This document shows positions 4,956 to 26,362 of a stretch of DNA of 32,000 nucleotides, one piece after another. The stretch's first letter is position 1. Each line of letters begins with the position of its first letter. Origin of the DNA: Balneola sp. (lineage in GTDB: Bacteria; Bacteroidota; Rhodothermia; Balneolales; Balneolaceae); the NCBI GenBank assembly GCA_002696035.1, contig NZQV01000020.1, positions 14,202 through 46,201 of the forward strand, read 5' to 3'. Below the pieces are notes generated by a model. It was not told the DNA's origin. It worked only from the letters and a program-made list of their open reading frames with translations, and did not search any database. Position numbers and translations under genes: made by a program.

Positions 4956-4965
4956 CTTAGCAGCT

Positions 4966-10887: not shown

Positions 10888-11895
10888 ATGCTGACTAAAA
10901 CGTTGATTCAAGCTTTACAAGGGGATGAACGCGCAACAGATCAATTGTGCATCCAGTTTCGGTATATAGCCGTTGCTTATCTGCGGTCTAAAGCTAAATC
11001 CAAAGACTTTTTGCTAGATCATTTATACAAGAATATTGATGACCTGGCATTGGACTGTATTGCCGATCTATTTGGAAGGTCAAATCAATGTCTGCAAAGT
11101 ATTGAGGCATTTTTAACCCTTGACCAGATCAAAGAAATGAGTGAAAGTGAGGTTCAAACAAAAGTTCGTCAACTTATTTTTAGTAAAGTAAATGATGGAC
11201 TGTATCAGAACTTCCAAAAATTGGATCCATCACTATCCCGAATAATTCGAAACCTGAAAAGAACGCTTGATGAGGATAAGGTCGCGGGACTAAACTATGA
11301 TCCAAGATCAGGTGAGATAGTAATTTCAGGTGAGAACCATTCCCTTCCGAATATGCCGGATGAAATTCTGGAGATCAAGATTTCCGCAAGGTTTTCTGAG
11401 ATCAAGAACAGTGTTGATGCGATCAAGGCACTTGCTTTTATAATCAGAGAAGCTGAAGAATACTCATCCAAAATAAAATTGGTCAATTTTGCTGTACTAC
11501 TGAGGAAAGTTTCTGCATACCGGCTTGAAAATGAAGTGGAGAACCTGACCTTGAAAGCGGGTGAGGAATACGATAGAACACATCTGAAAAAGATCCTGAC
11601 TGAATGTATAGCTACGGAAAGGATACATCTGCAAAAAACGTATGTGGAATCAAAAAAAGTAGATAAGAACCTTTTTGAAAAATATATGAGGGCAACCGAA
11701 AAGATATTAATAGCAGAATTTATTTCTGCATTGCCCCGGGAAGGATACTTTGAACATGTTGAATACTATCTGCCGGAATTAGATTATGGGAGATATAGAG
11801 CCGGGCACCGCCAAATTTTCGAATATATAGTGAAGAAAGTACGGGAACAGTTTTTAGCCCGAGTCAAAAAAGCAAAAAATTTCAGCAATACATAG
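10888..11895 (+). CDS. hypothetical protein with a sigma-70 region-2-like N-terminus (function unknown)
   Basis: 335-aa ORF with no competing frame and an ATG start after a 377-bp AT-rich intergenic region. The N-terminus LIQALQGDERATDQLCIQFRYIAVAYLRSKAKS...DDLALDCIADLF resembles the opening of ECF sigma factors (LI.RAQ.GD..AF..L...Y......A). The remainder is helical with no motif I recognise. Confidence 0.55.
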   Translation: MLTKTLIQALQGDERATDQLCIQFRYIAVAYLRSKAKSKDFLLDHLYKNIDDLALDCIADLFGRSNQCLQSIEAFLTLDQIKEMSESEVQTKVRQLIFSKVNDGLYQNFQKLDPSLSRIIRNLKRTLDEDKVAGLNYDPRSGEIVISGENHSLPNMPDEILEIKISARFSEIKNSVDAIKALAFIIREAEEYSSKIKLVNFAVLLRKVSAYRLENEVENLTLKAGEEYDRTHLKKILTECIATERIHLQKTYVESKKVDKNLFEKYMRATEKILIAEFISALPREGYFEHVEYYLPELDYGRYRAGHRQIFEYIVKKVREQFLARVKKAKNFSNT

Positions 11896-11947
11896 CTTTG
11901 GTAATGATGCAGTATAAAGTTGAGACAAGAACAATAGAAAGCAGCCT

Positions 11948-12703
11948 TTGAAGAAAATAAGTGAACATAGCATAGAGCAGTATATCAGGTTTTCCGATGA
12001 ATTAAGTTCAGCAAGAAAGCGGGAAATCAAACAAGTGATCGATCAATCAGAAGAACTGCAAGCGACCTATCAGTTTTTGTTGAGCTATTATGAAGAACTG
12101 GACAGGGTTTTCGGGGTGCAACCTTTTGTCTTTCCTTTAAAGCCTCTGCAGCTTAAAGAAAGAAGTGCAGGACCCGTTGTGCTGGCTGCAATGACATCCG
12201 CACAAGAAAGATCGATGCTGCAAACGAGAGTTACATTGGTGTCAGAGGAAAATAATAGGGTGGTAAGAGTCCTCGAAAACGAAAGAGATAACTGTTTGCA
12301 ATTTCATGTTATTTCGGAAAAAGAAGGGCAGAATGAACGGGTGATACTGTCTTTGGTGAAACCAGAGATCGACCTCGTTACCGATGAATTTGGTAAACTG
12401 AAAGGGGTTCGGGATCTGAGTAATATTGATTGGAACTCCATCTATTCCGTGCTTAGGGTGCCGGGTTTAAAATTAGAAATAGATCCTGAATACCACTCTT
12501 TTCCAGTGGCAGATCATTCAAAAGTGCAATTAAGTTTTGATGGCAAAAAGATCGAGATCAGCGTAGCGCATTGTGATAACGATTATTCAAGAATATTACT
12601 GGTTCAAAAGGGATCTACGGAACTTCAGATTGTGACAGCGAATAAAGTTGTATTCAATCTGGAGGCTAACGACAAACCTTTCTCCCTATATTTTTATGAA
12701 TGA
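11948..12703 (+). CDS. hypothetical soluble protein with an anti-sigma-like N-terminal helix (function unknown)
   Basis: 251 aa, with a TTG start as called by the track and no in-frame ATG nearby. The N-terminus IEQYIRFSDELSSARKREIKQVIDQSEELQATYQFL follows the spacing of anti-sigma N-terminal domains (L..YLDGEL...E...VE.HL..C..C...L) but lacks the His/Cys zinc ligands. It has no TM segment and the C-terminal part looks beta-rich. Confidence 0.5.
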   Translation: MKKISEHSIEQYIRFSDELSSARKREIKQVIDQSEELQATYQFLLSYYEELDRVFGVQPFVFPLKPLQLKERSAGPVVLAAMTSAQERSMLQTRVTLVSEENNRVVRVLENERDNCLQFHVISEKEGQNERVILSLVKPEIDLVTDEFGKLKGVRDLSNIDWNSIYSVLRVPGLKLEIDPEYHSFPVADHSKVQLSFDGKKIEISVAHCDNDYSRILLVQKGSTELQIVTANKVVFNLEANDKPFSLYFYE

Positions 12704-12728
12704 CCATTAATGCTTCAGCTTCAACAAA

Positions 12729-15077: not shown

Positions 15078-18000
15078 ATGTTGGGCAAAAAAAGATACAA
15101 ACTTAGTAAGGTGTGGGCTTTTCTATTCGTTTTGATGGGAATGGGATTAACTGCCAACGCACAAATGGTAACGGGAACTGATACGCTTTTCTATGACACC
15201 GAAACCTCATCATGGGACTTCTATGATTTTTCACATGCAACAGCTTTTGGGATTGATGATACAGCTTCTTTCGATGCAGATATTCGGGGTAGTAGTAATG
15301 AAGGGGGGAGTTTTGGTAGAGAGTATTCTCCAGAAGTATTGGAGAATCGTCTGTATTTGATTGGGGATGGAGGTCTGGATACAGCAGTTACAGTTCCTGA
15401 ATGGGTTGATGGTTCGCCGTGGGTAAGTGACGCCTGGCAAGCAAATGGAGGCCAACCAATAGTGACAGATCGTCTGTGGGCGATATATACTCAGGAAGGG
15501 ACTTATGCAATTATAGAATTCACTGAAATAGTAAGTGGAAACTATTATGTATTCGATTATAAATACCAAAGCGATGGTTCCAGAAATTTTGAAGAAGCTG
15601 ATTTTGGTGGAGGATCTTCAGGAATCGTAGAAGGATCGGCAACTAGTTCGAGCGGTAGTGGTTTTGATTTTTCAAGAGAAGAGACAGCAGACAATCATGA
15701 TGCCGGAGATTACCTGGTAGATTTTGTTTTTGTAAATAATGAAGGCGTAAATTTTGGGAACGAAGGAAGTGGATCTATTGATAGTACTGGTCGCCGGTTC
15801 CTGTTGTTGGGTGAGGGTAGTATTGATGAAGTTCAGGAAGTTCCTGCTAGAACGGATGCTGAACCGTGGGTTACGGTGTCATACGATGCTACCGGTTATC
15901 AACCCATTTCAGTAGGTCAGCTTTGGGCCGTATATACCCGCGAGGGAAATTATGGGGTCATAGAAATTACCGATCTGCCGGGTGGTGACTTTGGCAGTTC
16001 ATTTAATTTTAACTATAAATACCTGGATGATGGCAGCCGTGATTTTGGGGGAAGTGGAGATACCGGAGATCCGATACCAGATGTGATCACAATTGCTGAA
16101 GCACGGAATCTGGCCCCGGGCGAATTAGTAACCATTAAGGGTATTGTAACAAGTGCGAATAGAATTTATTCCAACATTCAGCAAGATACCGCGGGAATCT
16201 TAACCTACACCCCTTCGGGAGAAAATGTATCCGGTGATTATTTTAATGCCATTGAAAACGGAGATGTTGCTATAGGTGATTCTATAAGGATTACAGCCTA
16301 CCGAGAAGATTTTCAGGGCCAAAAAGAGCTGTTGGATTTTGTGGATTTCAATGTTTTTTCCAGAGGGAATCCTTTACCACAAGCCGAACTGCTTACCCTT
16401 GATGAATTCTTTGCTTCGGGAGATAATTATAACCCGGAGCGGATAAGAGTGAACGATCTTAGCATTCCTGGATCAAGTATTTTTGAAAGCGGGAGAACTT
16501 ATATAGCTGTTGAGAATAGTACTGGTAACAATATACGGTTCATTGTGCCACAAGGGAATAACCTGGCTGGAACGGAGATACCCGCCGTTTTTGAATACGA
16601 GGGTATTGCCGGCTATTCTACGGCTTATAGTTATGGTGCCAATCAGCAGCTTTTGGGACTGGAAGAATTTAATATAATTGAAGTTGAACCCCCCATTCCT
16701 TCAGATTCTACGGCTGCTCCTAATGGCAGTTTTGAGTATTCAAGCTTGGGTGAATTTATGGGAGAATCACCCGGCTGGTTTGCCGATTTTGATGCCGATA
16801 CAGGTGCTATGGGGACATTTGAGATCATTGATACCGAATTTCAGGATGGAGAGAAAGCACTCGAAGTTTCTATAAATAGTGTCCATCCGGAAGCGGATCA
16901 CTGGAGCATTCAAGTAGTGAACGAAAAGTTTAATTTGGTTCCCGGGAATCAGTATGAACTTTCGTTCTGGGCAAAATCAGCACAAAGTGGCGCAGTAATA
17001 GGTGGATTTATTCAAAATCAGGACTACGGTAATTTTGGAACTATCGCACAGGAGGAGTTATCTACATCCTGGACAGAGTATAAGACCACATTTGTAGCAA
17101 ATTCTGGAGATACAATAAGTACCGATGATAGTATTGGCCGTGTGGCTATATATTTGAACTACGAGGCAAATGAAGGCAAGCAGATCTACATTGATAATCT
17201 TCAGGTTAATGAAATTGAAAGCGGACCCATTGAAGGAGATCTTTATGATGGTGCTCTCACTGGAGCTGAAGGGCAAAGTTATTTTCTGCCTCTAAATATT
17301 GAATTGCTCAATGGCGTTCCTTTAGATGCTTTTGAGATCAAGGTAAATTTTGATCTTTCTTTCACAGAAGTTTCACTGGGAGAACAAGAAGGCACCCATG
17401 CTGATTATTTTGATATTGAAACAAATTCACCTGAACCCGGAGTCTTGCTTATTTCTGGAGCTACGGCAAATGGTATAACAGAATCTGGTCCGTTGATGTA
17501 TTTAGAGATAACAGCCCTGAGCTCAGGCACGGGGTCGATCGAAATTACAGACGTTTTCTTTAACGAAACGAGCATCAATGATGCATCTATCTCATTGGAT
17601 TTTGAAACTGGTTTTGTCTGTGGTGATGTAACCGGAGATTTAAATGTATCTGCCACAGATGCCTCATATGTTTTACGGCATACTGTGAAATTGTCTCCGC
17701 AATATCCATTGACCGGGCAGGATTCTACGGCCGCAGATGTAACCGGCAACGGCTGGATCTCAGCCTATGATGCGTCCCAGATTCTAAAGTATAACGTGGG
17801 CATGCCGGCCATTATGAATTGTGCATCTGCACAAGCTAAAATGGCTCCGCTGGCAGTTCAGGTTGACTGGGATTATTGGTCTGAAGGTGATGAGGGCTCT
17901 GAATATTCCGTTCCACTTAGTTTGAACGACCTTGAGGGAGCACTTACTGCGGCTGAAATACAGATCCCAATGACGGAGGGTTTGAAATTCAAGGGGATAA

Positions 18001-18479
18001 ATAACGCTCCGGAAAACTGGCAAGTAACTACGAATGTGAGAGATGGTGTTGCATATGTATCAATGTTTGGAGCAGAAACCGTGGAGTCGGAACTGTTAGG
18101 AGAACTGGCCTTTGAACTCATCGATAAAACTGAAGTTCAAAATATTGAGGGCAGAATTGTGGTGAATGAAAACCCACCGGTTCAACTTGAGAAACTGACA
18201 CTTAATGATCTCCCAAGGGAATTTAAGGTTTCTCAGAATTACCCAAATCCATTCAACCCAACTACCCAGATCAAATACAGTGTTCCGGAGGATGCAAAAG
18301 TTCAGCTTTTTGTATACAATCTGTTAGGGCAGAAAGTGGCAGAATTGGTGAATGAACAGAAATCGCCGGGCCGATATACCGTAAGCTGGGATGCAGGTAA
18401 CAACTCGAGTGGGGTGTACATGTACCGTCTGGTAGCCGGAGAAAATGTGTTCACCAAGAAAATGATGCTAATCAAATAA
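15078..18479 (+). CDS. T9SS-sorted multidomain surface protein (duplicated N-terminal module, OB-fold-like, CBM4/9-like, cohesin-like, dockerin, cohesin-like, T9SS CTD)
   Basis: 1133 aa with a signal peptide [29 protein letters not shown].
- CBM4_9-like segment at 16719..17213 (PNGSFE...WSIQV...[12 protein letters not shown]...IYIDNLQV).
- Cohesin-like segments at 17271..17573 and 17898..18176.
- Two-repeat dockerin at 17619..17801 ([20 protein letters not shown] ... [23 protein letters not shown]).
- T9SS C-terminal domain at 18216..18476 ([19 protein letters not shown]...GVYMYRL..G....TKKMMLIK). Confidence 0.85.
15213..16049 (+). repeat. intragenic duplication: two copies of an uncharacterised module of about 127 aa
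   Basis: Copy A covers aa about 46-172 (...[61 protein letters not shown]...[13 protein letters not shown]). Copy B covers aa about 195-324 (...[62 protein letters not shown]...[13 protein letters not shown]). The similarity is at protein level; the DNA has diverged. Confidence 0.75.
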
Positions 18480-18486
18480 CAGGACG

Positions 18487-20973
18487 ATGAAAAAGATTGC
18501 AGGACTACTATTTATAATTTTTCTTACATCGTATGCTAACCTGGCAATGGGGCAACTCCAAGTCTCGTTGCCAGACCTGGAGATACAGAATGCAGATACC
18601 ACCCTTGAAGTACCAATTACAATTCAAGGACTGGCTCCGGACTCGATCAGCGGCTTTACTTTTGAAGTCACTTTTGATCCCGGGGTAGCCATTGTAACGG
18701 GCCATTCAAAGTCCGGTACCTCATCAGCAGGATTTTCTGTGGTGGGAAATAGTAATTCAGAAACTACGTACAGAGTATCTGGAGCAGGCTCCGATCCAAT
18801 CTATGATAATGGTACTATTCTAAAAATAGAAGTACAGGTAATGGGATCAGGAACTTCTGTACTTGAATTCTCAGAGATCGAGATAAATGAAGGAGAACCG
18901 GCTTTTACATCAAATAATGGAAGCATTACGGTTGGAGGCCTTCCAGGTATTCCTGGTCTGACTTCTCCGGGAAATAACCGCACGGGAATTGCTATCAATA
19001 CAACATTGCATTGGGAATCTGTGCAAGCTGCCAGTAGTTATGAGCTGCAGGTATCGGAGTCTTCAGGTTTTCAAAGTTTGATAGCAGATGAAAGCCTCAC
19101 TTCTGAATCTTTTGCGCTGCAGGGCTTGGATTATACAACAATATATTTTTGGCGGGTTCGGGCCATAAATAGCTCGGGTAGTAGTGACTGGTCGGAGGTA
19201 TTTTCGTTTACCACAAAAGAGGTTCCGCTGCCAGAAGCTCCATCGCTTTCATCTCCTTTGAATGAATCAGAGCAAATTTCTGTCGATGTCATTTTTGATT
19301 GGGAGGAATCCAACTTAGCGGAGCATTATACACTTCAGCTTTCAACTACAACTACCTTTGGATCCGGTTCTCTTACAATTAATGAATCGGTTTCAGAAAC
19401 GACGTATTCAGCAGAAGATCTGAACCATAACACAACCTATTACTGGCGTGTGAAGGCCGAAAATTCAGACGGAGAAAGTGATTGGTCTGATACCTTTTCA
19501 TTCTCCACCATCGTTGAAGCTCCCGGCCTTGCAACACTGATGTTTCCCGCTAATGAAGCCGAAAGCGCAGATACACTTGTCACGCTGGTTTGGGGTGAAG
19601 CTGACAGAGCTGAATCTTATCAGGTGCAGGTGGCCTCAAATAATGATTTCAGTCCTGCTGTTTATGATGGAGAAGTTGCAGATACCGTTTTAAGTATTGG
19701 CGGGTTGAACTTTTCAACGACCTATTACTGGCGGGTAAAATCGCTGAATGCAGGAGGAGAAAGTAATTGGAGCTCAAGAGCTGAATTTACAACCGGAGCT
19801 GCACAAGCGGGTTTGCCAACATTGGCAAGTCCTCAAAACAACGCGACCGGAACCGACACGTCTCTCACTTTTACCTGGAATGCAGGAGAAAATGCGGTTA
19901 GCTACAAAATTCAGGTAGCGAGTGATGTAGAATTCAATTCTGTTGTAAGGGAAGAAAGCAATGTTTCAGGTACTTCCATCACTTTTGATGACTTTGAACA
20001 CGAAGCCCGCTATTATTGGAGGGTGAGAACCAATGCTGAGAATACAACTTCGGGTTGGTCCAGTACCTTCAATTTTACAACACTTGAGAAAGAAAACAAG
20101 CCGCCAGTAGTGGAAAACCCGATGGGAAGTATTTCACTATCAGAAGATTTTGGGAATTCTACCGTGGTTGATCTGAAAACGGTTTTTTCGGATGATCAGA
20201 CATCGCAATTATCATTTGAACTCATCGATTTCACAGAGCAAATATTTACCGCTGTCATTAATGAAAATTCAGAATTGATTTTAACATCGATTGAAGATCA
20301 ATTTGGTAATGCGAAGGTTGTGGTAAGTGCCAGTGATGAAGATGGGGCTACCATTCAAGATACCCTCGATGTAACTATTGATCCTGTAAACGATTTACCC
20401 GAGTTTGTTCAAATTCCCGATACCGTTCGGTTTACCAGCGGGGAAGAATATACCCTTCAATATGGAAACATTGCAGCAGATGTAGAAGATGAGTTCTCAG
20501 ACCTTACCTTCAGTTTTAACATAGAGCCGGAAGAATTAACCTTTGAAGTATCCGTTTCAGCTACTGAGATCACCATTTCTTCATCTGATTTTGTGGGGGA
20601 AGGGGTACTTACTTTCAGTGTGGAAGATTCTGATGGCGGAAGAATTGAGGGAAGTATTGTGTTGGTGGTTGAGACGGGCACTTCATCGGAGTTACAAGAA
20701 ACAGTTCCGGAAGAATTTGTCTTATCTCAGAACTTTCCCAATCCATTCAACCCGACCACCCAAATTCAATATCAGCTGCCCGAAGCTGCTTCGGTCCAGT
20801 TCAGAGTGTTTGATATGACGGGGCGTATCGTTCATGATGCAGGAGTTGAGCGGAGATCAGCCGGTTCGTATACGCTTTCATTCGATGCCGAATCTCTTTC
20901 AAGTGGTATTTATCTCTACCAAATTAAGGCCGGATCATTTAGTGAGACAAAAATCATGACATTGATAAAATAA
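18487..20973 (+). CDS. T9SS-sorted surface protein (N-terminal cohesin-like domain, 4 FN3-like repeats, cadherin-like modules, T9SS CTD)
   Basis: 828 aa, starting 7 nt after the previous gene.
- Signal peptide MKKIAGLLFIIFLTSYANLAMG.
- Cohesin-like domain at aa 24-150 (TLEVPITIQGLAPDSISGFTFEVTFDPGV...GTILKIEVQVMGSGTSVLEFS).
- Four repeats of about 95 aa, each ending YYWRV.A....S.WS..F.F.T.
- Two modules ending in VNDLP-type motifs.
- CTD at 20713..20970 ([19 protein letters not shown]...GIYLYQI.AG.F.ETKIMTLIK). Confidence 0.85.
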   Translation: MKKIAGLLFIIFLTSYANLAMGQLQVSLPDLEIQNADTTLEVPITIQGLAPDSISGFTFEVTFDPGVAIVTGHSKSGTSSAGFSVVGNSNSETTYRVSGAGSDPIYDNGTILKIEVQVMGSGTSVLEFSEIEINEGEPAFTSNNGSITVGGLPGIPGLTSPGNNRTGIAINTTLHWESVQAASSYELQVSESSGFQSLIADESLTSESFALQGLDYTTIYFWRVRAINSSGSSDWSEVFSFTTKEVPLPEAPSLSSPLNESEQISVDVIFDWEESNLAEHYTLQLSTTTTFGSGSLTINESVSETTYSAEDLNHNTTYYWRVKAENSDGESDWSDTFSFSTIVEAPGLATLMFPANEAESADTLVTLVWGEADRAESYQVQVASNNDFSPAVYDGEVADTVLSIGGLNFSTTYYWRVKSLNAGGESNWSSRAEFTTGAAQAGLPTLASPQNNATGTDTSLTFTWNAGENAVSYKIQVASDVEFNSVVREESNVSGTSITFDDFEHEARYYWRVRTNAENTTSGWSSTFNFTTLEKENKPPVVENPMGSISLSEDFGNSTVVDLKTVFSDDQTSQLSFELIDFTEQIFTAVINENSELILTSIEDQFGNAKVVVSASDEDGATIQDTLDVTIDPVNDLPEFVQIPDTVRFTSGEEYTLQYGNIAADVEDEFSDLTFSFNIEPEELTFEVSVSATEITISSSDFVGEGVLTFSVEDSDGGRIEGSIVLVVETGTSSELQETVPEEFVLSQNFPNPFNPTTQIQYQLPEAASVQFRVFDMTGRIVHDAGVERRSAGSYTLSFDAESLSSGIYLYQIKAGSFSETKIMTLIK
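18943..20082 (+). repeat. four tandem FN3-like repeats of about 95 aa (protein-level)
   Basis: The repeat ends are marked by YFWRVRAINSSGSSDWSEVFSFTT, YYWRVKAENSDGESDWSDTFSFST, YYWRVKSLNAGGESNWSSRAEFTT and YYWRVRTNAENTTSGWSSTFNFTT. Each is preceded by a SP.N......V.F.W......Y.LQV motif. Confidence 0.8.
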
Positions 20974-21069
20974 TTTTCAGCAGGTTTTTGGATGTGTAAG
21001 GATTTAAAATGGGTTTTGGGTACAAAGATCTGATTTTACCTCTTTAACCAACAGGAAGTAAAATTGGGG

Positions 21070-21103
21070 AAAAACCACATTCTGAAATGAGTGTGGTTTT
21101 TTT
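21070..21103 (+). terminator. Rho-independent terminator after the T9SS cargo genes
   Basis: AAAAACCACA (21070..21079) pairs with TGTGGTTTTT (21092..21101) across a 12-nt loop, and the T run continues to 21103. It lies 97 nt after the stop at 20973. Confidence 0.6.
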
Positions 21104-21151
21104 ATGAATTCAGCTTAAAATAAATTTTGCTGTCTCAGGAAAAATTTATGG

Positions 21152-21240
21152 AATGTGGATAATTAAATTTATCAGAATTAAAAAATCAATAATAATATTG
21201 TTTTTATCTCTAATTATTTTGATTTGTAAAATGTGGATAA
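21152..21240 (+). promoter_or_regulatory. pair of identical 11-mers AATGTGGATAA, each containing a perfect DnaA-box 9-mer (complement TTATCCACA), in an AT-rich promoter region
   Basis: TGTGGATAA occurs at 21154..21162 and 21232..21240, in the same orientation and 78 bp apart. The second copy ends 71 nt upstream of the ATG at 21312. The 11-nt identity extends to AATGTGGATAA at 21152..21162 and 21230..21240. Confidence 0.5.
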
Positions 21241-21311
21241 CTCTTTTATAATAGGCCTTGATTGATATCATTAATTACAGTAGGCTTTATTAACCATTTA
21301 AAGTATTAGTT

Positions 21312-23123
21312 ATGAATCGGGTACATGTCGGGGTTTTGGTAATAGGGATTCTGCTATCATATTCGGTATCGGGGTTAGCACAGACAACGAGCAATCGGAT
21401 GGCCGCTCCAGATGAAGCTGAGGAAGCTTCAAAGTATGAACAGTACTACGAAGTGATATTAGATCGCTCTTTACGTGAATATTATGATAGGGGAACTTAT
21501 ATCGTTGATGTGAAAGCCATTATCGAACGAGTTATGGTAGCAAAGGGATACGATATGGTAGAATCCCCACCAAATATAGAAATAGAAAACCTGCCTGGAT
21601 TACCTGTAATTCCTCCTAACTTAAGGAATAATCAAAATCAGGATAGTTTAAAGGTTTCTGGTTTTGATTCAAGATATAAGCTTACAGGGCTAAATGTAAA
21701 GGTGCTTGTTGATACATCCTACTCTGAGGAGGATATTGAGTTTATTGAAGAAGCCGCAGCCATGATATCTAATGCTGACTTATTGAGAGGAGATGTTATT
21801 GAAGTAACCGAAAGGGTTTTTCCAGGGATAGAGAGGACTCGTATTCAAACTCAGTCAGAATTGGATACTAATGGCGGCGATATTGAAGAGGCAGAACCTG
21901 AATTAAATAGGTTTTTGGGAATGAATTGGAATGATCCAAAGCAGCTTTTATATGTTATTTTTGGGTTAGGGCTTTTACTTTTTGGTCTTCTGTTATTCTT
22001 GTCTTTTCGAAAGCGCAGACCAACAGAGTTTGATGAAAATAGGACTCGTTATCAGCAACCCCCAGAGTTTAATCCACTATCTCAAGGCAATGAAAATAAT
22101 AATGGAAAAGAGTCAAATGAGGTGCGCGAAATCAATACTGACAAGCAGCAACAGTTTGAAAAGGACAAAATGTACATTACTAATACATGTGTAAGTGAGC
22201 CGCAGATGGTAGCAAATCTTGTTTCAGGTTGGATAGAGGATGATAAAGAGGAAGGTGTAGTACGGGCGGTCCGACAGGTTTATAGCGTTGATCATAAGTT
22301 GTTGAATATTTTAGAAGATCATCTTACTGATGAACAATATAATTCTATACAGTTTGGCCTTTCAAATATTGACTCTATTCCTATTGAAGAAAAAGTAGAG
22401 GAAGTTGCTCAGTTTAAGAAGAGTATACAGGGCATAAAAAAAGAACGTCAAAAGAAAGATTCTGAATCAAACCTGTTCGGTTTCTTAAAACAGCTTACCA
22501 ATCAGCAATTGGTGCATTTGGTTAAAGGGGAGTCAGATGAGATGACTGCAATACTGCTAGCCCAGGTTGCAGGAGAGCGTTCAGGCTATGTGTTGCAAAA
22601 AATGAAGGAACAGAAACGCATTTCGGTTGTCTTAAAAATGGGCAAGATCAACAATATTCCCGTGTCTATATATAAAAGAGTGGCAGCTCATTTTTCTTCG
22701 AAGGCATTGTCAGTATCTGATATGAAATTTGTAGCTGCAGATGGGGTTGAATCTATACTCGCCACTATAGACAGTATGCCAGTGAGCAAGCAGGAGGAGT
22801 TCGTAAATTCAATCGCAGAGCAAGATATAGAATTGGCCAAAAAGATTAGAAAGTACTTTGTAGCTTTCGAAGATATTCCGGATATGGAAGATGACTTATT
22901 GCAAAAAAGCATTGAAAATATTGGCACAGAAGACCTTGTCCCCGCACTTTTTGGAGCTGATAAAGATGTTCAGAAGAAAATACTCCAAGTGCGTCCTAAG
23001 AGAGAGCAACAGCTGATTATTTCAGAATTAAATAATACGAATGAGTTAAGTAAATCTGAAGTAGAGCAAGCCAGAAAAGAATTACTAAAAGTAATCCGAA
23101 ATCATCTAAAAAAAGTAGGCTGA
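21312..23123 (+). CDS. bitopic membrane protein: FliF C-terminal-like periplasmic segment, TM helix, full-length FliG-like cytoplasmic domain (rotor-like fusion)
   Basis: 603 aa.
- N-terminal signal/TM segment VHVGVLVIGILLSYSVSGLAQ.
- Periplasmic LNVKVLVDTSYSEEDIEFIEEAAAMISNADLLRGDVIEVTERVF (nt about 21684..21827). This parallels the Salmonella FliF segment RLSVAVVVN...QIEDLTREAMGF..KRGDTLNVVNSPF, which precedes FliF TM2.
- TM helix LLYVIFGLGLLLFGLLLFLSF (21942..22007).
- Cytoplasmic aa about 296-603, FliG-like: LVHLVKGESDEMTAILLAQVAGERSGYVLQKMKEQKRISVVLKMGKI (M-domain pattern L..EHPQ.IALIL..L....AA.VL..L......V..RIA), AADGVESILATID....QEEFVNSIAEQDIELAKKIRKYFVAFEDI and LLQKSIENIGTEDLVPALFGADKDVQKKILQVRPKREQQLIISEL....ELSKSEVEQARKELLKVIR (C-domain pattern). 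Confidence 0.7.
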   Translation: MNRVHVGVLVIGILLSYSVSGLAQTTSNRMAAPDEAEEASKYEQYYEVILDRSLREYYDRGTYIVDVKAIIERVMVAKGYDMVESPPNIEIENLPGLPVIPPNLRNNQNQDSLKVSGFDSRYKLTGLNVKVLVDTSYSEEDIEFIEEAAAMISNADLLRGDVIEVTERVFPGIERTRIQTQSELDTNGGDIEEAEPELNRFLGMNWNDPKQLLYVIFGLGLLLFGLLLFLSFRKRRPTEFDENRTRYQQPPEFNPLSQGNENNNGKESNEVREINTDKQQQFEKDKMYITNTCVSEPQMVANLVSGWIEDDKEEGVVRAVRQVYSVDHKLLNILEDHLTDEQYNSIQFGLSNIDSIPIEEKVEEVAQFKKSIQGIKKERQKKDSESNLFGFLKQLTNQQLVHLVKGESDEMTAILLAQVAGERSGYVLQKMKEQKRISVVLKMGKINNIPVSIYKRVAAHFSSKALSVSDMKFVAADGVESILATIDSMPVSKQEEFVNSIAEQDIELAKKIRKYFVAFEDIPDMEDDLLQKSIENIGTEDLVPALFGADKDVQKKILQVRPKREQQLIISELNNTNELSKSEVEQARKELLKVIRNHLKKVG

Positions 23124-23127
23124 TAAG

Positions 23128-24219
23128 ATGAGAATATTTCTGCTAATAATGTTAATGGTGATTGGATTCCTTCAGCCGGGGCAAGCACAAAAAGAACTAA
23201 GGGAAGCTGAAAGGCGTGCTGAAACTTATATGATGAGTCGGATATCAGATCAATTAAGTACAGAGTTGAGTGATCTTCCAATAAATATCAGGCGAATGGC
23301 AATTTATAAGATAAATTATAACAGTAATAGATTTAGCAATGAGTCGATCGCTTTTATAAAAGGGGAAATCGAAACTGTATTTAAGGAGCATTCGCCAGTC
23401 TCAGTCATCTCACCACCTGAATTGGACCCGACTGATAAACTCAAAATTGTTGGGACAGATTCAACTTTGAAATTGATGAACATAAAAGGCCGCTCCTTAG
23501 CAGACATGTCACCTGAATTATTGGAAAGTGTTGCCAATAAATATTTATTAAGTGGACTTGCTGAGCTTACTTTGCAACGCCATTTTACAGAAGGGTTAGT
23601 AGTACAAATTCGAATTATGAGTCCTCAATCTCGTGAAATCGTATGGACGAGAAGTATAGTCGCATATCCCGTAGGAATTCAGGAAAAAGATAATACCGGA
23701 AAAAATGTGGTCATAAGGTTTGGAACCACGGTAATGAGTAATGAATTTTATACCAATCCTATCGCATCAAATATTGAGAACTCAGTCGAAACCTCCTCTT
23801 TAAATTACAATTTTAACTTTGGGTATCGTCAGTCATTCAATGAAGAGAATAGTGGATATCTTGGGTTTTATACAGGCTTTAATATTATTCGGTCAAATGC
23901 GAGTGAGGAGTTTGAGGCTGACTTTTGGGAATTGGGCATTTCTTTTGACCAGGCAATTTCTATGAAAAATGAACAGATTAATGACTATCGGGTAATGCTT
24001 GGTGTTGATTCCTCAGTTTGGTTGGCTATGGGAGATAACAAAGGTAACCTTATTACATTTAACCCCTCTTTAATATTGAATATGACCAAAAATATAGGCT
24101 TTGAATTATATGGTCAATACTTTTTAGGTGATCGGGCATTTACAAGTGATGATGTAAGTAGTAACACATACACATATGGACAATTTGGATATGGAGTGAA
24201 AGCCTATGTACAATTTTAA
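23128..24219 (+). CDS. secreted protein, probable outer-membrane beta-barrel with an N-terminal alpha/beta periplasmic module
   Basis: 363 aa, starting 4 nt after the previous stop. It has a signal peptide MRIFLLIMLMVIGFLQPGQAQ. The C-terminal half has alternating aromatic/polar beta-strand patterns (LNYNFNFGYRQSF, GYLGFYTGFNII, IGFELYGQYFLG) and the terminal ...YGVKAYVQF, where the C-terminal Phe is typical of BAM substrates. The N-terminal part (RRMAIYKINYN...GLAELTLQRHFTEGLVVQIRIMSPQSREIVW) loosely recalls FlgO/CsgG/LpoB-type modules, but this is a weak inference. Confidence 0.55.
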   Translation: MRIFLLIMLMVIGFLQPGQAQKELREAERRAETYMMSRISDQLSTELSDLPINIRRMAIYKINYNSNRFSNESIAFIKGEIETVFKEHSPVSVISPPELDPTDKLKIVGTDSTLKLMNIKGRSLADMSPELLESVANKYLLSGLAELTLQRHFTEGLVVQIRIMSPQSREIVWTRSIVAYPVGIQEKDNTGKNVVIRFGTTVMSNEFYTNPIASNIENSVETSSLNYNFNFGYRQSFNEENSGYLGFYTGFNIIRSNASEEFEADFWELGISFDQAISMKNEQINDYRVMLGVDSSVWLAMGDNKGNLITFNPSLILNMTKNIGFELYGQYFLGDRAFTSDDVSSNTYTYGQFGYGVKAYVQF

Positions 24220-24832
24220 AGAATTATCAACCTGTTTAATATTGATTTTTTTGGCTCAATCTTGTGCACCTACTGAGAGAGGTATCTCTGAGGGAGGAGG
24301 ACAATATTATACACTGGATGAGCTGCGTCAATTAGATCAGATTACTGAAGAAAAAAATGATAAAGTTATTCTGAACTACAAAAATGAAAGTTCGGGAATA
24401 CAAATTCGTCTTGATCCAGAAAAGGATGAATTTTTTCTAGACCTGAAAGGAATGCAACCGGCAGAAAAAGATACTGTTATAATTGCGGACTCGACACTCA
24501 TCGAAAACCGTGAAAGAGATATTCAAACAGTACTTTCTAAATTCAGAAATGCTCAGGATCTATTTTACCTGGAAGAATATACAGAAGCCTTGAGGTTGCT
24601 AAATGAAACACTCCAAATTGCTGAAACAGCAGATGCATACGCTCTCAAAGGAACCATTCATTTTATGATGGGTAATCAAAATGCAACCCGTGAAAATTGG
24701 AATCGTGCAGTCCAGATCAATCCTGACTTGCCTATACCAAGTATTCCGGAGCTCGAAACTATTATTGAAGATATTAAGCAGGAAGAAGGTATAGAGCCTT
24801 CAGCTGAAGATCAGGAACAAGAAGAACAGTAA
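24206..24832 (+). CDS. probable lipoprotein with a TPR repeat and an acidic C-terminal tail
   Basis: 208 aa, overlapping the previous gene by 14 nt. The signal sequence has a lipobox-like LIFLAQSC. A TPR-like segment reads YLEEYTEALRLLNETLQIAETADAYALKGTIHFMMGNQNATRENWNRAVQINPD. The C-terminus is EEGIEPSAEDQEQEEQ. Confidence 0.6.
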   Translation: MYNFKELSTCLILIFLAQSCAPTERGISEGGGQYYTLDELRQLDQITEEKNDKVILNYKNESSGIQIRLDPEKDEFFLDLKGMQPAEKDTVIIADSTLIENRERDIQTVLSKFRNAQDLFYLEEYTEALRLLNETLQIAETADAYALKGTIHFMMGNQNATRENWNRAVQINPDLPIPSIPELETIIEDIKQEEGIEPSAEDQEQEEQ

Positions 24833-24846
24833 GAGGAGATCAATTA

Positions 24847-25677
24847 ATGAGGTTATCGTTAACGAACATTTTTGGGGTATTATTTAGTATAGGGATTTTG
24901 GTTTTTGGGATATTAGAGGTGACTGGAGCTACATCTTATATAGAATCTATTCCTATACTTTCCGATTATCAATTTTTAAATATTCCAAGTCTATTTATTG
25001 TGATGGGAGGGGTTTTGAATGCTGTCTTTATAACGTATCAACCTCGTTATGTAGGTAAGGCATTTTTGAGTTTATTCTATTTTTTTAGTCAGGCTAAAAC
25101 CAATTCTAAAGCTTTAGAGAATGATCTGGATAATATTCTGGAATGGAATGAGCAGATCCGTGATAACCGGGTTCAGGCATTATCTAAATTTGAAGAAGAG
25201 CATCAGGACGAGATCGAGGGGTTTTTATTTTCTTTGATAAGTACGAATTATAACAATGAAGAAATTCGTGATTTTGGCTCTAATAATATCGAAGAACAAT
25301 ATTTTCGTAAAATGGTTGTGGTTGATGTGCTTAGGGCAATGGGCGGTGCAGCACCCTCATTCGGGATGTTTGGTACATTATTCGGACTAGTGGTTATGTT
25401 GGGCGAACTTGATAACCCATCAGCTATGGGGCCTGGACTTGCCGCTGCCCTGATCACCACGCTGTATGGAATTGCCTTGGCTAGATTCATTTTCTATCCG
25501 ATGGCAGAAAAACTTAAAAACATAGCGCAGATGAATAAATTTAGGGAGTACTTTATTTTAGAAGGTATACTCCTTATCAATGAGAAAAAGTCATCATTCT
25601 ATATTAAAGATAAAATGAAGACATATTTACAAAGAGATTTTAAAAGAGAAGAAGAGTTAGAGCTGCAAGGGGTATAA
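24847..25677 (+). CDS. MotA/PomA-type (4-TM) proton/ion channel stator subunit
   Basis: 276 aa. Two N-terminal TM segments are followed by a cytoplasmic loop of about 100 aa. Next comes GGAAPSFGMFGTLFGLVVMLGELDNPSAMGPGLAAALITTLYGIALARFIFYPMAEKL, the MotA_ExbB core, with both conserved prolines in the positions of E. coli MotA P173 and P222. Confidence 0.85.
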   Translation: MRLSLTNIFGVLFSIGILVFGILEVTGATSYIESIPILSDYQFLNIPSLFIVMGGVLNAVFITYQPRYVGKAFLSLFYFFSQAKTNSKALENDLDNILEWNEQIRDNRVQALSKFEEEHQDEIEGFLFSLISTNYNNEEIRDFGSNNIEEQYFRKMVVVDVLRAMGGAAPSFGMFGTLFGLVVMLGELDNPSAMGPGLAAALITTLYGIALARFIFYPMAEKLKNIAQMNKFREYFILEGILLINEKKSSFYIKDKMKTYLQRDFKREEELELQGV

Positions 25678-25678
25678 C

Positions 25679-26362
25679 GTGAAGCGCAATGGAGGTTTAG
25701 GCCGGAACTCAAATAATGATCGCAATGTCCATGAAGAAGATCTGGAGTGGCTTCTTACTTACAGCGATATGATAACTCTGTTGTTGGCTTTTTTTGCAGT
25801 TCTAATCGCAGTTTCCCACGTAGATATAAATCTTTGGGAACAGATGAAACAGGGACTTCGCTCTGAAGTAAGTAAACAGGAAAATGTTCGGACTCCCCTG
25901 GCTGAGGTTAAGAAAGATCTGGATGAGAGATTGGCTTCAGAACGTGAAGCTAACCTTGTGGATATAACACTCGGCCGTGAAGGAATTAAACTATTCTTTA
26001 ATAGCAGTTCATTCTACAATTCTGGGGAAGCTGAGTTATTACCTACTGGGCAAAATATCATTGATATTGTGACCGAGGCGATGAGTGACTTGGGATACTA
26101 TCAATTTAGAATTGATGTGGAAGGCCATACTGATAATGTTCCTATTAGCACTGCTCGGTACCCGTCTAACTGGGAGCTTTCAGTGGCACGGGCTTCGGAA
26201 ATCGTGAAGTACTTTATTGAGGAGGGAATTGAAGGAGACCGTTTGAAAGCTTCTGGGTATGCAGACACTCAACCAGTTGTGCCGCACGTGGATGAAGATG
26301 GTAATGATATCATCGAGAACCGAGCACTAAACCGGCGTATAGTAATTAGGATTTATTACTGA
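25679..26362 (+). CDS. MotB/OmpA-family stator anchor subunit
   Basis: 227 aa, with a GTG start 1 nt after the motA-like stop. The N-terminal WLLTYSDMITLLLAFFAVL carries the conserved channel Asp (MotB D32 equivalent). The C-terminal OmpA-like peptidoglycan-binding domain reads GHTDNVPI........SNWELSVARASEIVKYF...GI...RL.ASGYADTQPV......NRALNRRIVIRI. Confidence 0.85.
   Translation: MKRNGGLGRNSNNDRNVHEEDLEWLLTYSDMITLLLAFFAVLIAVSHVDINLWEQMKQGLRSEVSKQENVRTPLAEVKKDLDERLASEREANLVDITLGREGIKLFFNSSSFYNSGEAELLPTGQNIIDIVTEAMSDLGYYQFRIDVEGHTDNVPISTARYPSNWELSVARASEIVKYFIEEGIEGDRLKASGYADTQPVVPHVDEDGNDIIENRALNRRIVIRIYY

What the first reader, a model, noticed from the sequence alone, without database searches (positions are those of the whole stretch)
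21312..26362. Self-contained five-gene rotor/stator-like envelope module without any flagellar context (FliF-C/FliG fusion, OM barrel, TPR lipoprotein, MotA, MotB)
**Layout seen in sequence.** Five same-strand genes are packed with a 4-nt gap, a 14-nt overlap, a 14-nt gap and a 1-nt gap. Upstream they are bounded by a terminator (21070..21103) and a 208-bp AT-rich region. Downstream they are bounded by a convergent fad operon that overlaps the last gene by 7 nt. The unit is therefore complete within the window.

**Gene content.**
1. An inner-membrane protein whose periplasmic part ends in a FliF-C-terminal-like segment and whose cytoplasmic part is a FliG-like N/M/C array.
2. A signal-peptide protein ending in ...YVQF, with a beta-barrel-like C-terminal half.
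3. A lipobox/TPR protein.
4. A 4-TM MotA/PomA-type channel.
5. A MotB with the channel Asp and an OmpA-like peptidoglycan-binding domain.

**Established knowledge.** FliG is the torque acceptor of MotAB stators in flagella. Other 5:2-type motors (ExbBD, TolQR, GldLM/PorLM, AglRQS, ZorAB) do not use FliG.

**Inference.** The window has no export apparatus, rod, hook, switch (fliM/N) or filament genes. A rotor-like and stator pair with its own OM barrel and TPR lipoprotein, without those genes, suggests an ion-driven trans-envelope machine distinct from the known classes. I know of no described system with this composition.
Basis: partly seen in the sequence, partly recalled or inferred. Interest (0 to 1): 0.9.

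Follow-up and report, generated by a model that had tools for sequence, protein, structure and literature searches.

The report
Flagellum-free FliF-FliG rotor/stator envelope module
A five-gene operon in a non-flagellated marine bacterium encodes what looks like the torque-generating core of a flagellar motor (a FliF::FliG fusion plus a MotAB-type ion channel) together with an outer-membrane barrel and a lipoprotein; the same five genes are kept together in at least four bacterial phyla, and I found no published description.

Summary
**Observation.** It is confirmed at the stated coordinates. Five same-strand, tightly packed genes lie between a strong terminator hairpin and a convergent fad gene.

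**Gene content.**
- Gene 1 is a true end-to-end FliF::FliG fusion: signal peptide, a collar-less FliF RBM3-like periplasmic domain, one TM, the FliF C-terminal FliG-binding helix, then FliG N/M/C.
- Genes 4 and 5 are a flagellar-type (PomAB/MotPS-like) stator. They keep the plug, the channel Asp, both channel prolines and the peptidoglycan-binding motifs.
- Gene 2 is a small outer-membrane barrel with a TolB-N/LpoB-like periplasmic domain.
- Gene 3 is a TPR lipoprotein.

**Conservation.** The five genes stay together in about 40 loci from Balneolaceae, Fibrobacterota, Elusimicrobiota, Gammaproteobacteria-labelled MAGs and two MAGs of unknown phylum. Two gene orders occur, the flanks are unrelated, and dN/dS is about 0.01-0.18.

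**Rotor features.** The torque-helix Arg (E. coli R281) is invariant. The FliM-binding motif is degenerate.

**Flagellar context.** No flagellar genes lie nearby. The nearest cultured carrier, Gracilimonas tropica, is described as non-motile and is reported to lack flagellar-assembly genes.

**Literature.** No description was found in the library I searched.

**Best reading.** This is a stand-alone ion-driven rotor/stator machine with envelope partners. Its output is unknown.

The parts
21068..21103 (+). Intrinsic-terminator hairpin of the upstream T9SS-cargo gene. It is the upstream boundary of the module.
   Evidence: 15-bp stem, -19 kcal/mol, z = -5.8, 0 of 200 shuffles fold as well, followed by a U-run.
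21104..21311 (+). AT-rich intergenic region and presumed promoter region. The best sigma-70-like match is at 21224-21252 (TTGTAA-17-TATAAT).
   Evidence: Sequence read. The promoter-like site scores 10/12, but the number of sites in the region is not above shuffles, so this is weak.
21312..23123 (+). Gene 1: FliF(C-terminal third)::FliG fusion, the presumed rotor subunit.
   Evidence: Pfam FliG_M and FliG_C. PDB FliG, E = 6e-15. The family profile aligns as one co-linear domain to E. coli FliF 354-552 plus FliG 1-322, 151 bits. 129 full-length 50%-identity cluster representatives share the architecture.
21312..21383 (+). Gene 1 signal peptide (aa 1-24, ...SGLAQ).
   Evidence: A hydrophobic N-terminus and an invariant Q24 are conserved in 21 homologs. 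This supports the 21312 start over the shorter 574-aa public gene call.
21384..21836 (+). Gene 1 periplasmic domain (aa 25-175): FliF RBM3-like with the beta-collar reduced to a short loop. It carries the family-wide LPGLP and RGD motifs.
   Evidence: The TM-free profile scores 16.0 bits against E. coli FliF (best of 2000 shuffles 7.8) and spans FliF 233-431 with the collar gapped. Weak but repeated Foldseek hits to FliF S-ring structures. Near-invariant P95, G96, G160 and D161 in 134 sequences.
21936..22007 (+). Gene 1 single transmembrane helix (aa 209-232), equivalent to FliF TM2.
   Evidence: Helix 209-232 has pLDDT 68-83. A hydrophobic segment at this position is found in nearly all family members. 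It aligns to FliF TM2.
22197..22256 (+). Gene 1 aa 296-315: counterpart of the extreme C-terminal, FliG-binding helix of FliF.
   Evidence: The linker profile hits E. coli FliF 534-552 (NDPRVVALVIRQWINNDHE) with 12.4 bits, best of 2000 shuffles 9.1.
22257..23120 (+). Gene 1 FliG N/M/C array, including the torque helix (K556, R564, E572).
   Evidence: Foldseek matches full-length FliG over about 320 columns, E = 4e-8. phmmer aligns query 335-597 to Salmonella FliG 53-314. The R281 equivalent is Arg in all sequences with a residue there and in all lineages.
23128..24219 (+). Gene 2: signal-peptide protein with a TolB-N/LpoB/PelC-like periplasmic domain (aa ~30-180) and a small, roughly 8-stranded outer-membrane beta-barrel (aa ~192-363) ending in an invariant Phe.
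   Evidence: AF2 model pLDDT 78, with barrel 10-residue blocks averaging about 70-95. Foldseek hits TolB, LpoB, GNA1162 and PelC for the N-domain, and OmpA-TM, OmpW, Ail and NspA for the barrel. Conserved alignment.
24206..24832 (+). Gene 3: lipoprotein (Cys20 after a hydrophobic leader) with a C-terminal TPR domain.
   Evidence: TPR_1 and TPR_2 hits. The lipobox Cys is invariant across Balneolaceae and Fibrobacterota homologs.
24847..25677 (+). Gene 4: flagellar-type MotA/PomA stator A subunit.
   Evidence: MotA_ExbB. Best NCBIfam hits are MotP and PomA. PDB PomA E = 4e-24. P173 and P222 equivalents in 37/37; PomA T158, T185 and T186 equivalents in 37, 36 and 37 of 37.
25679..26362 (+). Gene 5: MotB/PomB-type stator B subunit with plug, channel Asp and an OmpA-like peptidoglycan-binding domain.
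   Evidence: MotB_plug plus OmpA. Best NCBIfam hits are MotD and MotS. Invariant TYSDMITLL Asp, conserved plug, PSNWELS..RA and NRRI motifs.

Best explanation
The operon encodes a stand-alone, ion-driven rotor/stator machine built from flagellar motor parts but working without a flagellum.

**Shown by computation**
- Gene 1 is co-linear with the C-terminal third of FliF (RBM3 without collar, TM2, FliG-binding helix) fused to a complete FliG.
- Genes 4 and 5 are a flagellar-type (plug-bearing, PomAB-like) stator with all channel and peptidoglycan-anchor residues intact.
- The FliG torque-helix Arg is invariant, while the FliM-binding motif has decayed.
- Gene 2 is an outer-membrane barrel with a periplasmic domain, and gene 3 is a TPR lipoprotein.
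- The five genes are inherited as a unit across several phyla under purifying selection.

**Inferred**
- Gene 1 oligomerises, like FliF RBM3 and engineered FliF-FliG fusions, into an inner-membrane ring with an S-ring-like periplasmic face and a FliG ring on the cytoplasmic face.
- MotA5B2-type units anchored to peptidoglycan dock around the ring and turn it by H+ or Na+ flow, through the conserved torque-helix and MotA-loop interface.
- Genes 2 and 3 form the periplasmic and outer-membrane part. They either scaffold the stators (as MotX/MotY, FlgT or PflA/PflB do in some flagella) or are the load that the rotor's periplasmic face moves.
- The physiological output is unknown. Candidates are movement or organisation of outer-membrane or surface components, or envelope maintenance.
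For: **Anatomy of gene 1**
- Pfam FliG_M and FliG_C above cut-off.
- PDB FliG E = 6e-15, with residue alignment of the torque helix.
- Full-length FliG fold match over about 320 columns.
- The periplasmic profile scores 16.0 bits against E. coli FliF RBM3, versus at most 7.8 in 2000 shuffles.
- The linker matches the FliF C-terminal helix, and the whole-family profile aligns co-linearly to FliF+FliG with 151 bits.

**Stator**
-.

**Interface**
- The R281 equivalent is invariant.
- The MotA E98 equivalent is acidic in most non-Balneolaceae lineages.
- The R90/D289 pair is present in 32/32 Balneolaceae and jointly absent in Fibrobacterota and the two unclassified lineages.

**Envelope partners**
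-.

**Module conservation**
- 36 loci show g1-g2-g3-g4-g5.
- Fibrobacterota, Elusimicrobiota, Gammaproteobacteria (permuted order) and two further MAGs.
- Flanks are unrelated.
- dN/dS is about 0.01-0.18.

**No flagellar context**
-.
- G. tropica is non-motile and lacks KEGG flagellar-assembly genes (PMC5167729, PMC9909488).

**Ring formation by fusions**
- Engineered FliF-FliG fusions assemble into rings (PMC6079021, PMC10941966).
Against: - No experimental data exist.
- Ring formation and rotation are inferred from homology.
- The periplasmic part of the gene 1 model has pLDDT below 50, so the FliF fold matches are weak (E = 0.03-0.1).
- Pfam YscJ_FliF_C did not hit.
- The canonical MotA E98 position is not acidic in Balneolaceae (S, D or N, with acidic residues 2-4 positions later).
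- The R90/D289 co-variation has two exceptions, Elusimicrobiota (I/E) and Gammaproteobacteria (R/A).
- Without FliM and FliN the FliG ring lacks its usual support.
- I could not scan whole genomes for flagellar genes. The Gammaproteobacteria-labelled carriers may well be flagellated.
- No partner or cargo explains what the rotation would do.
Confidence: 0.6

Rival explanations
1. It is a non-rotary (or only locally rotary) trans-envelope energy transducer, analogous to Tol-Pal or TonB. The stator acts on the FliG-like domain of gene 1 to transmit force or a conformational signal across the periplasm to the TolB-N-like domain of gene 2 and the TPR lipoprotein. The purpose would be outer-membrane tethering, remodelling or export.
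For: - The composition parallels Tol-Pal: a MotA/TolQ-like subunit, a MotB/TolR-like subunit with an OmpA/Pal-like domain, an inner-membrane-anchored transducer, a TolB-N-like fold in gene 2, and a CpoB-like TPR protein.
- In one Gammaproteobacteria MAG the module lies next to a Wza/Wzc/Wzy polysaccharide-export locus.
- The PelC-like fold of the gene 2 N-domain.
Against: - The stator is of the flagellar type, with a plug and a PomA-like cytoplasmic domain. It is not TolQR/ExbBD-like: 20 bits against TolQ versus 128 bits against MotP.
- The acceptor is a complete FliG with an invariant torque-helix Arg, fused to a ring-building RBM3 domain. That points to a multimeric rotor rather than a TolA-like rod.
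- The polysaccharide-locus neighbourhood is seen in only one locus.
Confidence: 0.2
2. The operon supplies the fliF, fliG and motAB functions of a conventional flagellum whose other genes are dispersed elsewhere in the genome.
For: - The family Balneolaceae includes members with flagellar genes (Aliifodinibius), and Balneola vulgaris was described as flagellated (PMC9909488, PMC5167729).
- I could not scan the whole genome of this organism.
Against: - Gene 1 lacks FliF TM1, RBM1, RBM2 and most of the beta-collar, which house the export gate and hold the rod.
- The FliM-binding EHPQ-R motif is degenerate: E-S-D-E, and R160 becomes K, S or A.
- G. tropica carries the module, is non-motile and is listed as lacking flagellar-assembly genes (PMC5167729, PMC9909488).
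- The module always travels with an outer-membrane barrel and a TPR lipoprotein, not with flagellar genes, in all 8 loci with Pfam-annotated flanks.
Confidence: 0.05
3. It is a decaying relic of a lost flagellum with no current function.
For: PMC9909488 argues that the Balneolaceae ancestor was flagellated and that genes were progressively lost.
Against: - All five ORFs are intact in about 40 loci from at least four phyla.
- dN/dS is about 0.01-0.18 for every gene.
- The fused architecture is conserved in 129 divergent cluster representatives.
- Two of the five genes have no flagellar counterpart.
Confidence: 0.03
4. It is a Zorya-like anti-phage defence system that uses a MotAB-type motor.
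For: Gene 5 matches the generic ZorB (MotB) models of PADLOC, E = 5e-19.
Against: - Gene 4 has no ZorA hit, and no ZorC, ZorD or ZorE-like genes are present.
- The module is a stable core gene set in essentially all sampled Balneolaceae, with housekeeping flanks. It is not in a variable island.
- No copies on plasmids.
Confidence: 0.03

Closest known systems
Bacterial flagellar motor core (FliF MS-ring, FliG upper C-ring, MotAB/PomAB stator)
   Same: - Gene 1 is homologous and co-linear with FliF RBM3, TM2 and C-terminal helix, plus FliG N/M/C.
- The torque-helix Arg is conserved.
- The stator is of the flagellar (plug-bearing, PomAB-like) type, with the channel Asp, both prolines and the peptidoglycan-binding domain.
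- It probably shares the gear-like torque mechanism.
   Different: - FliF and FliG are one polypeptide.
- A cleavable signal peptide replaces TM1.
- RBM1 and RBM2 are absent, and the beta-collar is reduced to a short loop.
- The FliM-binding motif is degenerate.
- There are no FliM or FliN, export apparatus, rod, hook, filament or chemotaxis genes.
- It is instead always linked to an outer-membrane barrel and a TPR lipoprotein.
- It is found in non-flagellated lineages.
Chlamydiaceae natural FliF-FliG fusion (Bergeron 2016, PMC4768692)
   Same: A natural fusion of a shortened FliF to a FliG-like region, in a non-flagellated bacterium that has only a few flagellar genes.
   Different: According to the paper, the chlamydial protein is about 330 aa, keeps both TMs, has RBM2 plus one unassigned RBM-like region, and carries only a FliG_M-like segment. 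It has no linked MotAB and is proposed to interact with the injectisome. Here the RBM is RBM3-like, the FliG is complete and includes the torque domain, and a stator is co-encoded. I did not compare the sequences directly.
Engineered FliF-FliG full-length fusions of Salmonella and Vibrio (PMC6079021, PMC10941966)
   Same: They show that covalently linked FliF-FliG can assemble into membrane rings at 1:1 stoichiometry.
   Different: They are laboratory constructs of full-length FliF inside a complete flagellar system.
Tol-Pal system (TolQRA, TolB, Pal, CpoB)
   Same: - Overall parts list: a 5:2-type ion channel, an inner-membrane transducer, a TolB-N-like periplasmic fold, an OmpA-like peptidoglycan binder and a TPR protein.
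- A trans-envelope arrangement.
   Different: - The stator is flagellar-type, not TolQR.
- The transducer is a FliF/FliG fusion, not TolA.
- Gene 2 carries an outer-membrane barrel instead of a beta-propeller.
Periplasmic stator scaffolds of high-torque flagella (MotX/MotY T-ring, FlgT/FlgO/FlgP H-ring, PflA/PflB)
   Same: TPR- or Sel1-type proteins and outer-membrane-associated proteins are encoded alongside PomAB-like stators and position them around the rotor. This comparison rests on my own knowledge and on PMC7990780.
   Different: No sequence or fold match of genes 2 or 3 to these proteins was found. Those scaffolds assemble on the flagellar P and L rings, which are absent here.

Membership tests
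FliG (flagellar rotor/switch protein) | FliG_M and FliG_C domains above the Pfam gathering score | tested here: met
   FliG_M 33.6 bits (cut-off 25) and FliG_C 71.8 bits (cut-off 23.3). PDB FliG E = 6e-15.
FliG (flagellar rotor/switch protein) | Scores as an equivalog of fliG (TIGR00207, cut-off 226.7 bits) | tested here: not met
   78.5 bits, covering model positions 105-319 only.
FliG (flagellar rotor/switch protein) | Conserved torque-helix charged residues (E. coli K264, R281, D288, D289, R297) | tested here: inconclusive
   The R281 equivalent is invariant in all lineages. The D289 equivalent is E in Balneolaceae but G, S or A in most other lineages. D288 and R297 are not conserved.
FliG (flagellar rotor/switch protein) | EHPQ-R motif that binds FliM | tested here: not met
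   E is conserved, but HPQ becomes S-D/N-E and R160 becomes K, S or A. No fliM or fliN in any neighbourhood.
FliF (MS-ring protein) | RBM1 and RBM2 (SctJ-homology region, Pfam YscJ_FliF) and two TM helices | tested here: not met
   No YscJ_FliF or YscJ_FliF_C Pfam hit at E <= 1. The periplasmic part is only about 185 aa. The N-terminus is a signal peptide.
FliF (MS-ring protein) | RBM3, TM2 and the C-terminal FliG-binding helix | tested here: met
   Family profiles against E. coli FliF: 16.0 bits over FliF 233-431 (shuffle maximum 7.8), and 12.4 bits over 534-552 (shuffle maximum 9.1). Co-linear 151-bit alignment to FliF+FliG. Weak Foldseek support.
Flagellar stator MotAB/PomAB (FIT type of PMC12505986) | MotA_ExbB domain with both channel prolines; MotB plug, channel Asp and OmpA-like peptidoglycan-binding domain | tested here: met
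   Prolines in 37/37, Asp invariant, plug region conserved.
Flagellar stator MotAB/PomAB (FIT type of PMC12505986) | Reaches an NCBIfam equivalog cut-off for MotA, PomA or MotP, and for MotB, MotS or MotD | tested here: not met
   Best A subunit 128.5 bits against cut-off 394. Best B subunit 157.8 bits against cut-off 283.
Flagellar stator MotAB/PomAB (FIT type of PMC12505986) | Operates within a flagellum (flagellar genes in the genome) | not testable with these tools
   Only +/-10 kb flanks could be read, and none holds flagellar genes. The literature reports absence in G. tropica (PMC9909488).
Zorya anti-phage system | ZorA plus ZorB with ZorC/D or ZorE | tested here: not met
   Only generic ZorB (MotB) hits on gene 5. 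No ZorA hit on gene 4, and nothing on genes 1-3.
Tol-Pal | TolQ and TolR equivalogs, TolA, TolB beta-propeller, Pal lipoprotein | tested here: not met
   TolQ 20 bits against cut-off 221. Gene 2 shares only the TolB N-domain fold and has a barrel, not a propeller.
GldLM/PorLM T9SS motor | GldL and GldM family domains | tested here: not met
   No such Pfam or NCBIfam hits on any of the five proteins. The module also occurs in Elusimicrobiota and Gammaproteobacteria MAGs.

The most novel reading that the evidence does not exclude
The module is a previously unrecognised class of ion-driven rotary envelope machine: a FliF/FliG ring turned by MotAB-type stators, whose mechanical output goes to an outer-membrane barrel/TPR-lipoprotein complex rather than to a flagellar axle. 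It could be either a descendant of the flagellar motor or a surviving relative of the pre-flagellar rotor/stator core. In the second case it would show what 'half a motor' is good for. A further speculative extension is that it underlies unexplained motility reports in Balneola.
Probability: 0.4. Interest if true: 0.95.

Novelty: new variant of a known kind. Interest (0 to 1): 0.85.

Why it matters
**Why a specialist would care**
- FliG has been regarded as the torque acceptor unique to flagella. Other MotAB-family motors (Tol, Ton, Gld/Por, Agl, Zor) use other partners.
- A conserved, self-contained FliF::FliG plus MotAB module in non-flagellated bacteria of several phyla would be a new use of the flagellar torque generator.
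- It bears directly on the question raised in the recent survey of motility loss (PMC12199754): why do about 11% of non-motile species keep a rotor protein?
- It also bears on models of flagellar origin, because it shows a rotor/stator core that functions without the export apparatus.

**Why it is testable**
- It is experimentally tractable. Gracilimonas tropica DSM 19535 and Balneola sp. EhC07 are isolates that carry it.
- Its minimal composition of five proteins could make it an attractive system for reconstituting rotor-stator coupling.

Tried and rejected
**Tools and searches that did not deliver**
- Pfam and NCBIfam gave no FliF hit for gene 1 and nothing for gene 2.
- phmmer of the gene 1 N-terminal half against PDB sequences found nothing.
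- The AF2 model of gene 1 was poor in the periplasmic part (pLDDT below 50), so the FliF fold matches are only suggestive.
The narrower one, A6, found mainly Balneolaceae and some Fibrobacterota.
- The supplement of PMC9909488 lists KO definitions only, not per-genome presence. Absence of flagellar genes in G. tropica therefore rests on that paper's text.
- The literature query with 'second FliG' was swamped by 'second flight'.

**Ideas rejected**
- The three Pfam-less genes upstream (10888-14879) do not belong to the module. They are adjacent only in Gracilimonas.
- The module is not plasmid-borne.
- It is not a defence system.
- A strict R90/D289 co-variation does not hold. It has two exceptions once more lineages are added.
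- Ion specificity (Na+ or H+) could not be decided. The PomA-type Thr residues are also present in the aligned clostridial MotA (PDB 6ysf).

Full report
**1.

Their lengths are 603, 363, 208, 276 and 227 aa. They are separated by a 4-nt gap, a 14-nt overlap, a 14-nt gap and a 1-nt gap. The last gene overlaps the 3' end of a convergent 707-aa ORF by 7 nt. That ORF is a FadB-type enoyl-CoA hydratase/3-hydroxyacyl-CoA dehydrogenase, followed by a thiolase.

Upstream, the sequence 21068-21103 folds into a 15-bp hairpin of -19 kcal/mol (z = -5.8; none of 200 shuffles folds as well), followed by a U-run. This is a credible terminator of the preceding gene, although the consensus scan skipped it. The 208-bp spacer is AT-rich. 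The whole module has lower G+C (0.35-0.39) than its flanks (0.42-0.46).

The remaining large ORFs of the window are housekeeping genes (fructosamine kinase, IleRS, signal peptidase II, RibBA, a BCCT transporter and others), two large T9SS cargo proteins, or have no Pfam match. None is flagellar.

**2. What the five proteins are**

*Gene 1.*
- It has FliG_M and FliG_C above Pfam's gathering scores.
- It matches crystal and cryo-EM FliG sequences at E = 6e-15. One alignment reaches back to residue 53 of Salmonella FliG.
- The AlphaFold model is confident for the cytoplasmic helical domains (pLDDT 75-88). It matches full-length FliG structures over about 320 columns (E = 4e-8), so the N, M and C domains are all present.

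The periplasmic part was modelled poorly, and Pfam gave no FliF hit. I therefore built profiles from a 134-sequence alignment of the family and compared them with E. coli FliF taken from the K-12 record.
- The periplasmic-only profile, without the TM, scores 16.0 bits (E = 1.3e-6 for this single target), against a maximum of 7.8 bits in 2,000 shuffled FliF sequences. Its alignment spans FliF 233-431, which is the RBM3 domain, and most of the beta-collar insertion falls in gaps.
- The profile of the cytoplasmic linker hits the last 19 residues of FliF (NDPRVVALVIRQWINNDHE, opposite gene 1's SEPQMVANLVSGWIEDDKEEG). To my knowledge this is the FliG-binding helix. The score is 12.4 bits, against a shuffle maximum of 9.1.
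- The whole-family profile aligns as one co-linear domain to an artificial concatenation of E. coli FliF and FliG. It covers FliF 354-552 and then FliG 1-322, with 151 bits and E = 2e-48.
- Independent but weak support comes from Foldseek. After the FliG hits it returns some 18 FliF S-ring/RBM3 structures at E = 0.03-0.1.
- A tblastn hit in a Bacillus record also runs from the end of fliF into fliG.

Gene 1 is therefore a signal peptide, then a collar-less RBM3, TM2 and the FliF C-terminal helix, then a complete FliG. The 21312 start is supported by a conserved signal-peptide-like N-terminus in homologs. A public gene call had used a later Met.

*Genes 4 and 5.*
- Both are flagellar-type stator subunits. 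The best NCBIfam matches are MotP and PomA for gene 4, and MotD, MotS and PomB for gene 5. TolQ and ExbB are about 100 bits weaker.
- The best PDB matches are PomA (E = 4e-24), and MotB and PomB.
- Across 37 module copies, both channel prolines are invariant. The PomA T158 and T186 equivalents are invariant and the T185 equivalent is Thr in 36 of 37.
- The MotB channel Asp (TYSDMITLL), the plug region, and the PSNWELS..RA and NRRI peptidoglycan-binding motifs are conserved.
- In the terms of PMC12505986, this is a plug-bearing 'flagellar ion transporter' type, not a generic one.

*Gene 2.*
- It has no family hit but gave a good model (pLDDT 78).
- The model shows a signal peptide and an alpha/beta periplasmic domain that matches the TolB N-domain, the LpoB C-domain, GNA1162 and PelC.
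- A C-terminal barrel of about eight strands follows. It matches the OmpA transmembrane domain, OmpW, Ail and NspA, and ends in an invariant Phe.

*Gene 3.* It has TPR repeats and an invariant Cys after a hydrophobic leader in all homologs examined. It is therefore a lipoprotein.

**3. The module is a conserved evolutionary unit, far beyond this organism**

- **Organism.** The window comes from a Balneolaceae bacterium. The nearest named relative is Gracilimonas tropica, with 72% identity for gene 1.
- **Family size.** An exhaustive profile search found 158 representatives of 50%-identity clusters at E <= 1e-30. Of these, 129 are full-length and nearly all share the layout of signal peptide, 180-280 periplasmic residues, one TM and FliG.
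- **Gene order in named genomes.** A scan of named genomes returned 37 loci. Every one with enough downstream DNA has the order g1-g2-g3-g4-g5, for 36 loci in all. These include four Fibrobacterota MAGs.
- **Other lineages.** Family profiles confirm all five genes in an Elusimicrobiota MAG and in two unclassified MAGs on long contigs. In a Gammaproteobacteria-labelled MAG the order is g4-g5-g2-g3-g1. A 'Pseudomonadota' contig cut at its end shows g3-g1, which is consistent with that second order.
- **Flanks.** They are unrelated between lineages and hold no flagellar genes.
- **Upstream genes.** The three Pfam-less genes that lie upstream in the window are adjacent only in Gracilimonas and are not part of the unit.
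- **Selection.** Pairwise dN/dS is about 0.01-0.18 for all five genes.
- **Mobile elements.** Plasmid records hold only canonical fliG. Defence-system models match only the generic MotB part of gene 5.

**4. Rotor-stator interface**

- Against E. coli FliG, the torque-helix Arg (R281) is Arg in every sequence with a residue at that column and in every lineage examined.
- Its flagellar partner position in MotA (E98) is acidic in most non-Balneolaceae lineages. In Balneolaceae it is S, D or N, with a conserved acidic cluster 2-4 residues later.
- The second pair (MotA R90 with FliG D289) is K/R with E in all 32 Balneolaceae copies compared. Both sides are uncharged in Fibrobacterota and the two unclassified lineages. 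The pair is only half-present in the Elusimicrobiota (I/E) and Gammaproteobacteria (R/A) copies, so the co-variation is suggestive and not clean.
- The FliM-binding EHPQ-R motif is degenerate. This fits the absence of FliM and FliN.

**5. Are the hosts flagellated?**

I could not scan whole genomes, so this rests on two papers.
- PMC5167729 lists all Gracilimonas species as non-motile.
- The comparative analysis in PMC9909488 states that G. tropica DSM 19535, G. amylolytica and the genera Balneola, Fodinibius, Halalkalibaculum and Rhodohalobacter lack flagellar-assembly genes, whereas Aliifodinibius retains an incomplete set.

G. tropica carries the module in a neighbourhood syntenic with the window.

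Independently of the literature, gene 1 lacks RBM1, RBM2 and most of the collar. These are the parts of FliF that accommodate the export gate and the rod. It could therefore not replace FliF in a flagellum.

**6. Most likely mechanism**

- *Shown:* the anatomy, the conservation and the selection described above.
- *Inferred:*
  - Gene 1 assembles, like FliF RBM3 and engineered FliF-FliG fusions (PMC6079021, PMC10941966), into an inner-membrane ring carrying a FliG ring.
  - Peptidoglycan-anchored MotA5B2-type units turn the ring using ion flow.
  - The outer-membrane barrel protein and the TPR lipoprotein either position the stators or are what the rotor's periplasmic face acts on.
- *Candidate contact sites:* across 134 divergent members the only near-invariant periplasmic positions of gene 1 are LPGLP and RGD. 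Gene 2 has an almost invariant stretch (aa 104-126) that is predicted to be disordered.
- *Unknown:* the output of the machine.
- *Confidence:* about 0.6 for a flagellum-independent rotor/stator machine. The main rival (about 0.2) is a Tol-Pal-like, non-rotary force transducer with the same parts. The relic, dispersed-flagellum and defence readings are each at or below 0.05.

**7. Comparison with what is known, and novelty**

- The torque core is homologous to the flagellar motor, but the module fails several membership tests for a flagellar system:
  - none of the fliG, motA or motB equivalog cut-offs is reached;
  - RBM1 and RBM2 are absent;
  - there is no FliM-binding motif;
  - there are no flagellar neighbours.
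- The closest precedent is the chlamydial FliF-FliG fusion (PMC4768692). It has a different RBM content, only a FliG_M-like segment and no linked stator.
- Eight full-text searches found no description of this five-gene set.
- The recent survey PMC12199754 explicitly leaves open why non-motile species keep rotor proteins.
- NCBI annotates gene 1 homologs only as 'FliG C-terminal domain-containing protein'.
- I classify it as a new variant of a known kind: a flagellar-type rotor/stator in a new, self-contained envelope context. I give a substantial chance (about 0.4) that it deserves to be called a new class of rotary machine.

**8. Verdict**

Interest is high (0.85). The finding is real, widely conserved, apparently undescribed, relevant to the origin and reuse of the flagellar motor, and testable in cultured strains.

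Noticed in passing
window 15078-20973: Two large T9SS cargo proteins (Por_Secre_tail with cohesin, dockerin, CBM_4_9 and fn3 domains) sit between the module and three genes that lie directly upstream of the module in G. tropica. This looks like a lineage-specific insertion of a cohesin/dockerin pair in a Balneolaceae genome.
   Followed up: partly
window 10888-14879: Three consecutive ORFs (335, 251 and 716 aa) have no Pfam match. They are conserved and syntenic in G. tropica but absent next to the module in all other loci.
   Followed up: partly
literature; loci L020, L022, L025, L026: PMC5167729 lists Balneola vulgaris as motile by flagella, whereas PMC9909488 states that Balneola genomes lack flagellar-assembly genes. 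Balneola genomes carry the module. The discrepancy is unresolved.
   Followed up: no
L046 5191-18819: In a Gammaproteobacteria-labelled MAG the module is in permuted order (g4-g5-g2-g3-g1). A Sel1/SPOR protein precedes it, and a BBP2_2 barrel plus a Wza/Wzc/Wzy polysaccharide-export cluster follows it.
   Followed up: partly
window 23437-23505 (gene 2 aa 104-126) and 21591-21605 (gene 1 aa 94-98): A nearly invariant stretch of gene 2 is predicted to be disordered (pLDDT below 50). The LPGLP motif of gene 1 is one of only two near-invariant periplasmic motifs across 134 divergent family members. Both are candidate protein-protein contact sites.
   Followed up: no
window 4822-5367: The listed ORF for a DksA/TraR-type zinc-finger protein starts inside the 3' end of the IleRS gene (1800-4955). 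Only its last ~30 residues match the family, so the true start is probably further downstream.
   Followed up: no
window 21312 versus the public gene call: The identical protein in the Tara gene catalogue is called 29 residues shorter (574 aa), which removes the signal peptide. Homolog conservation supports the longer form.
   Followed up: yes
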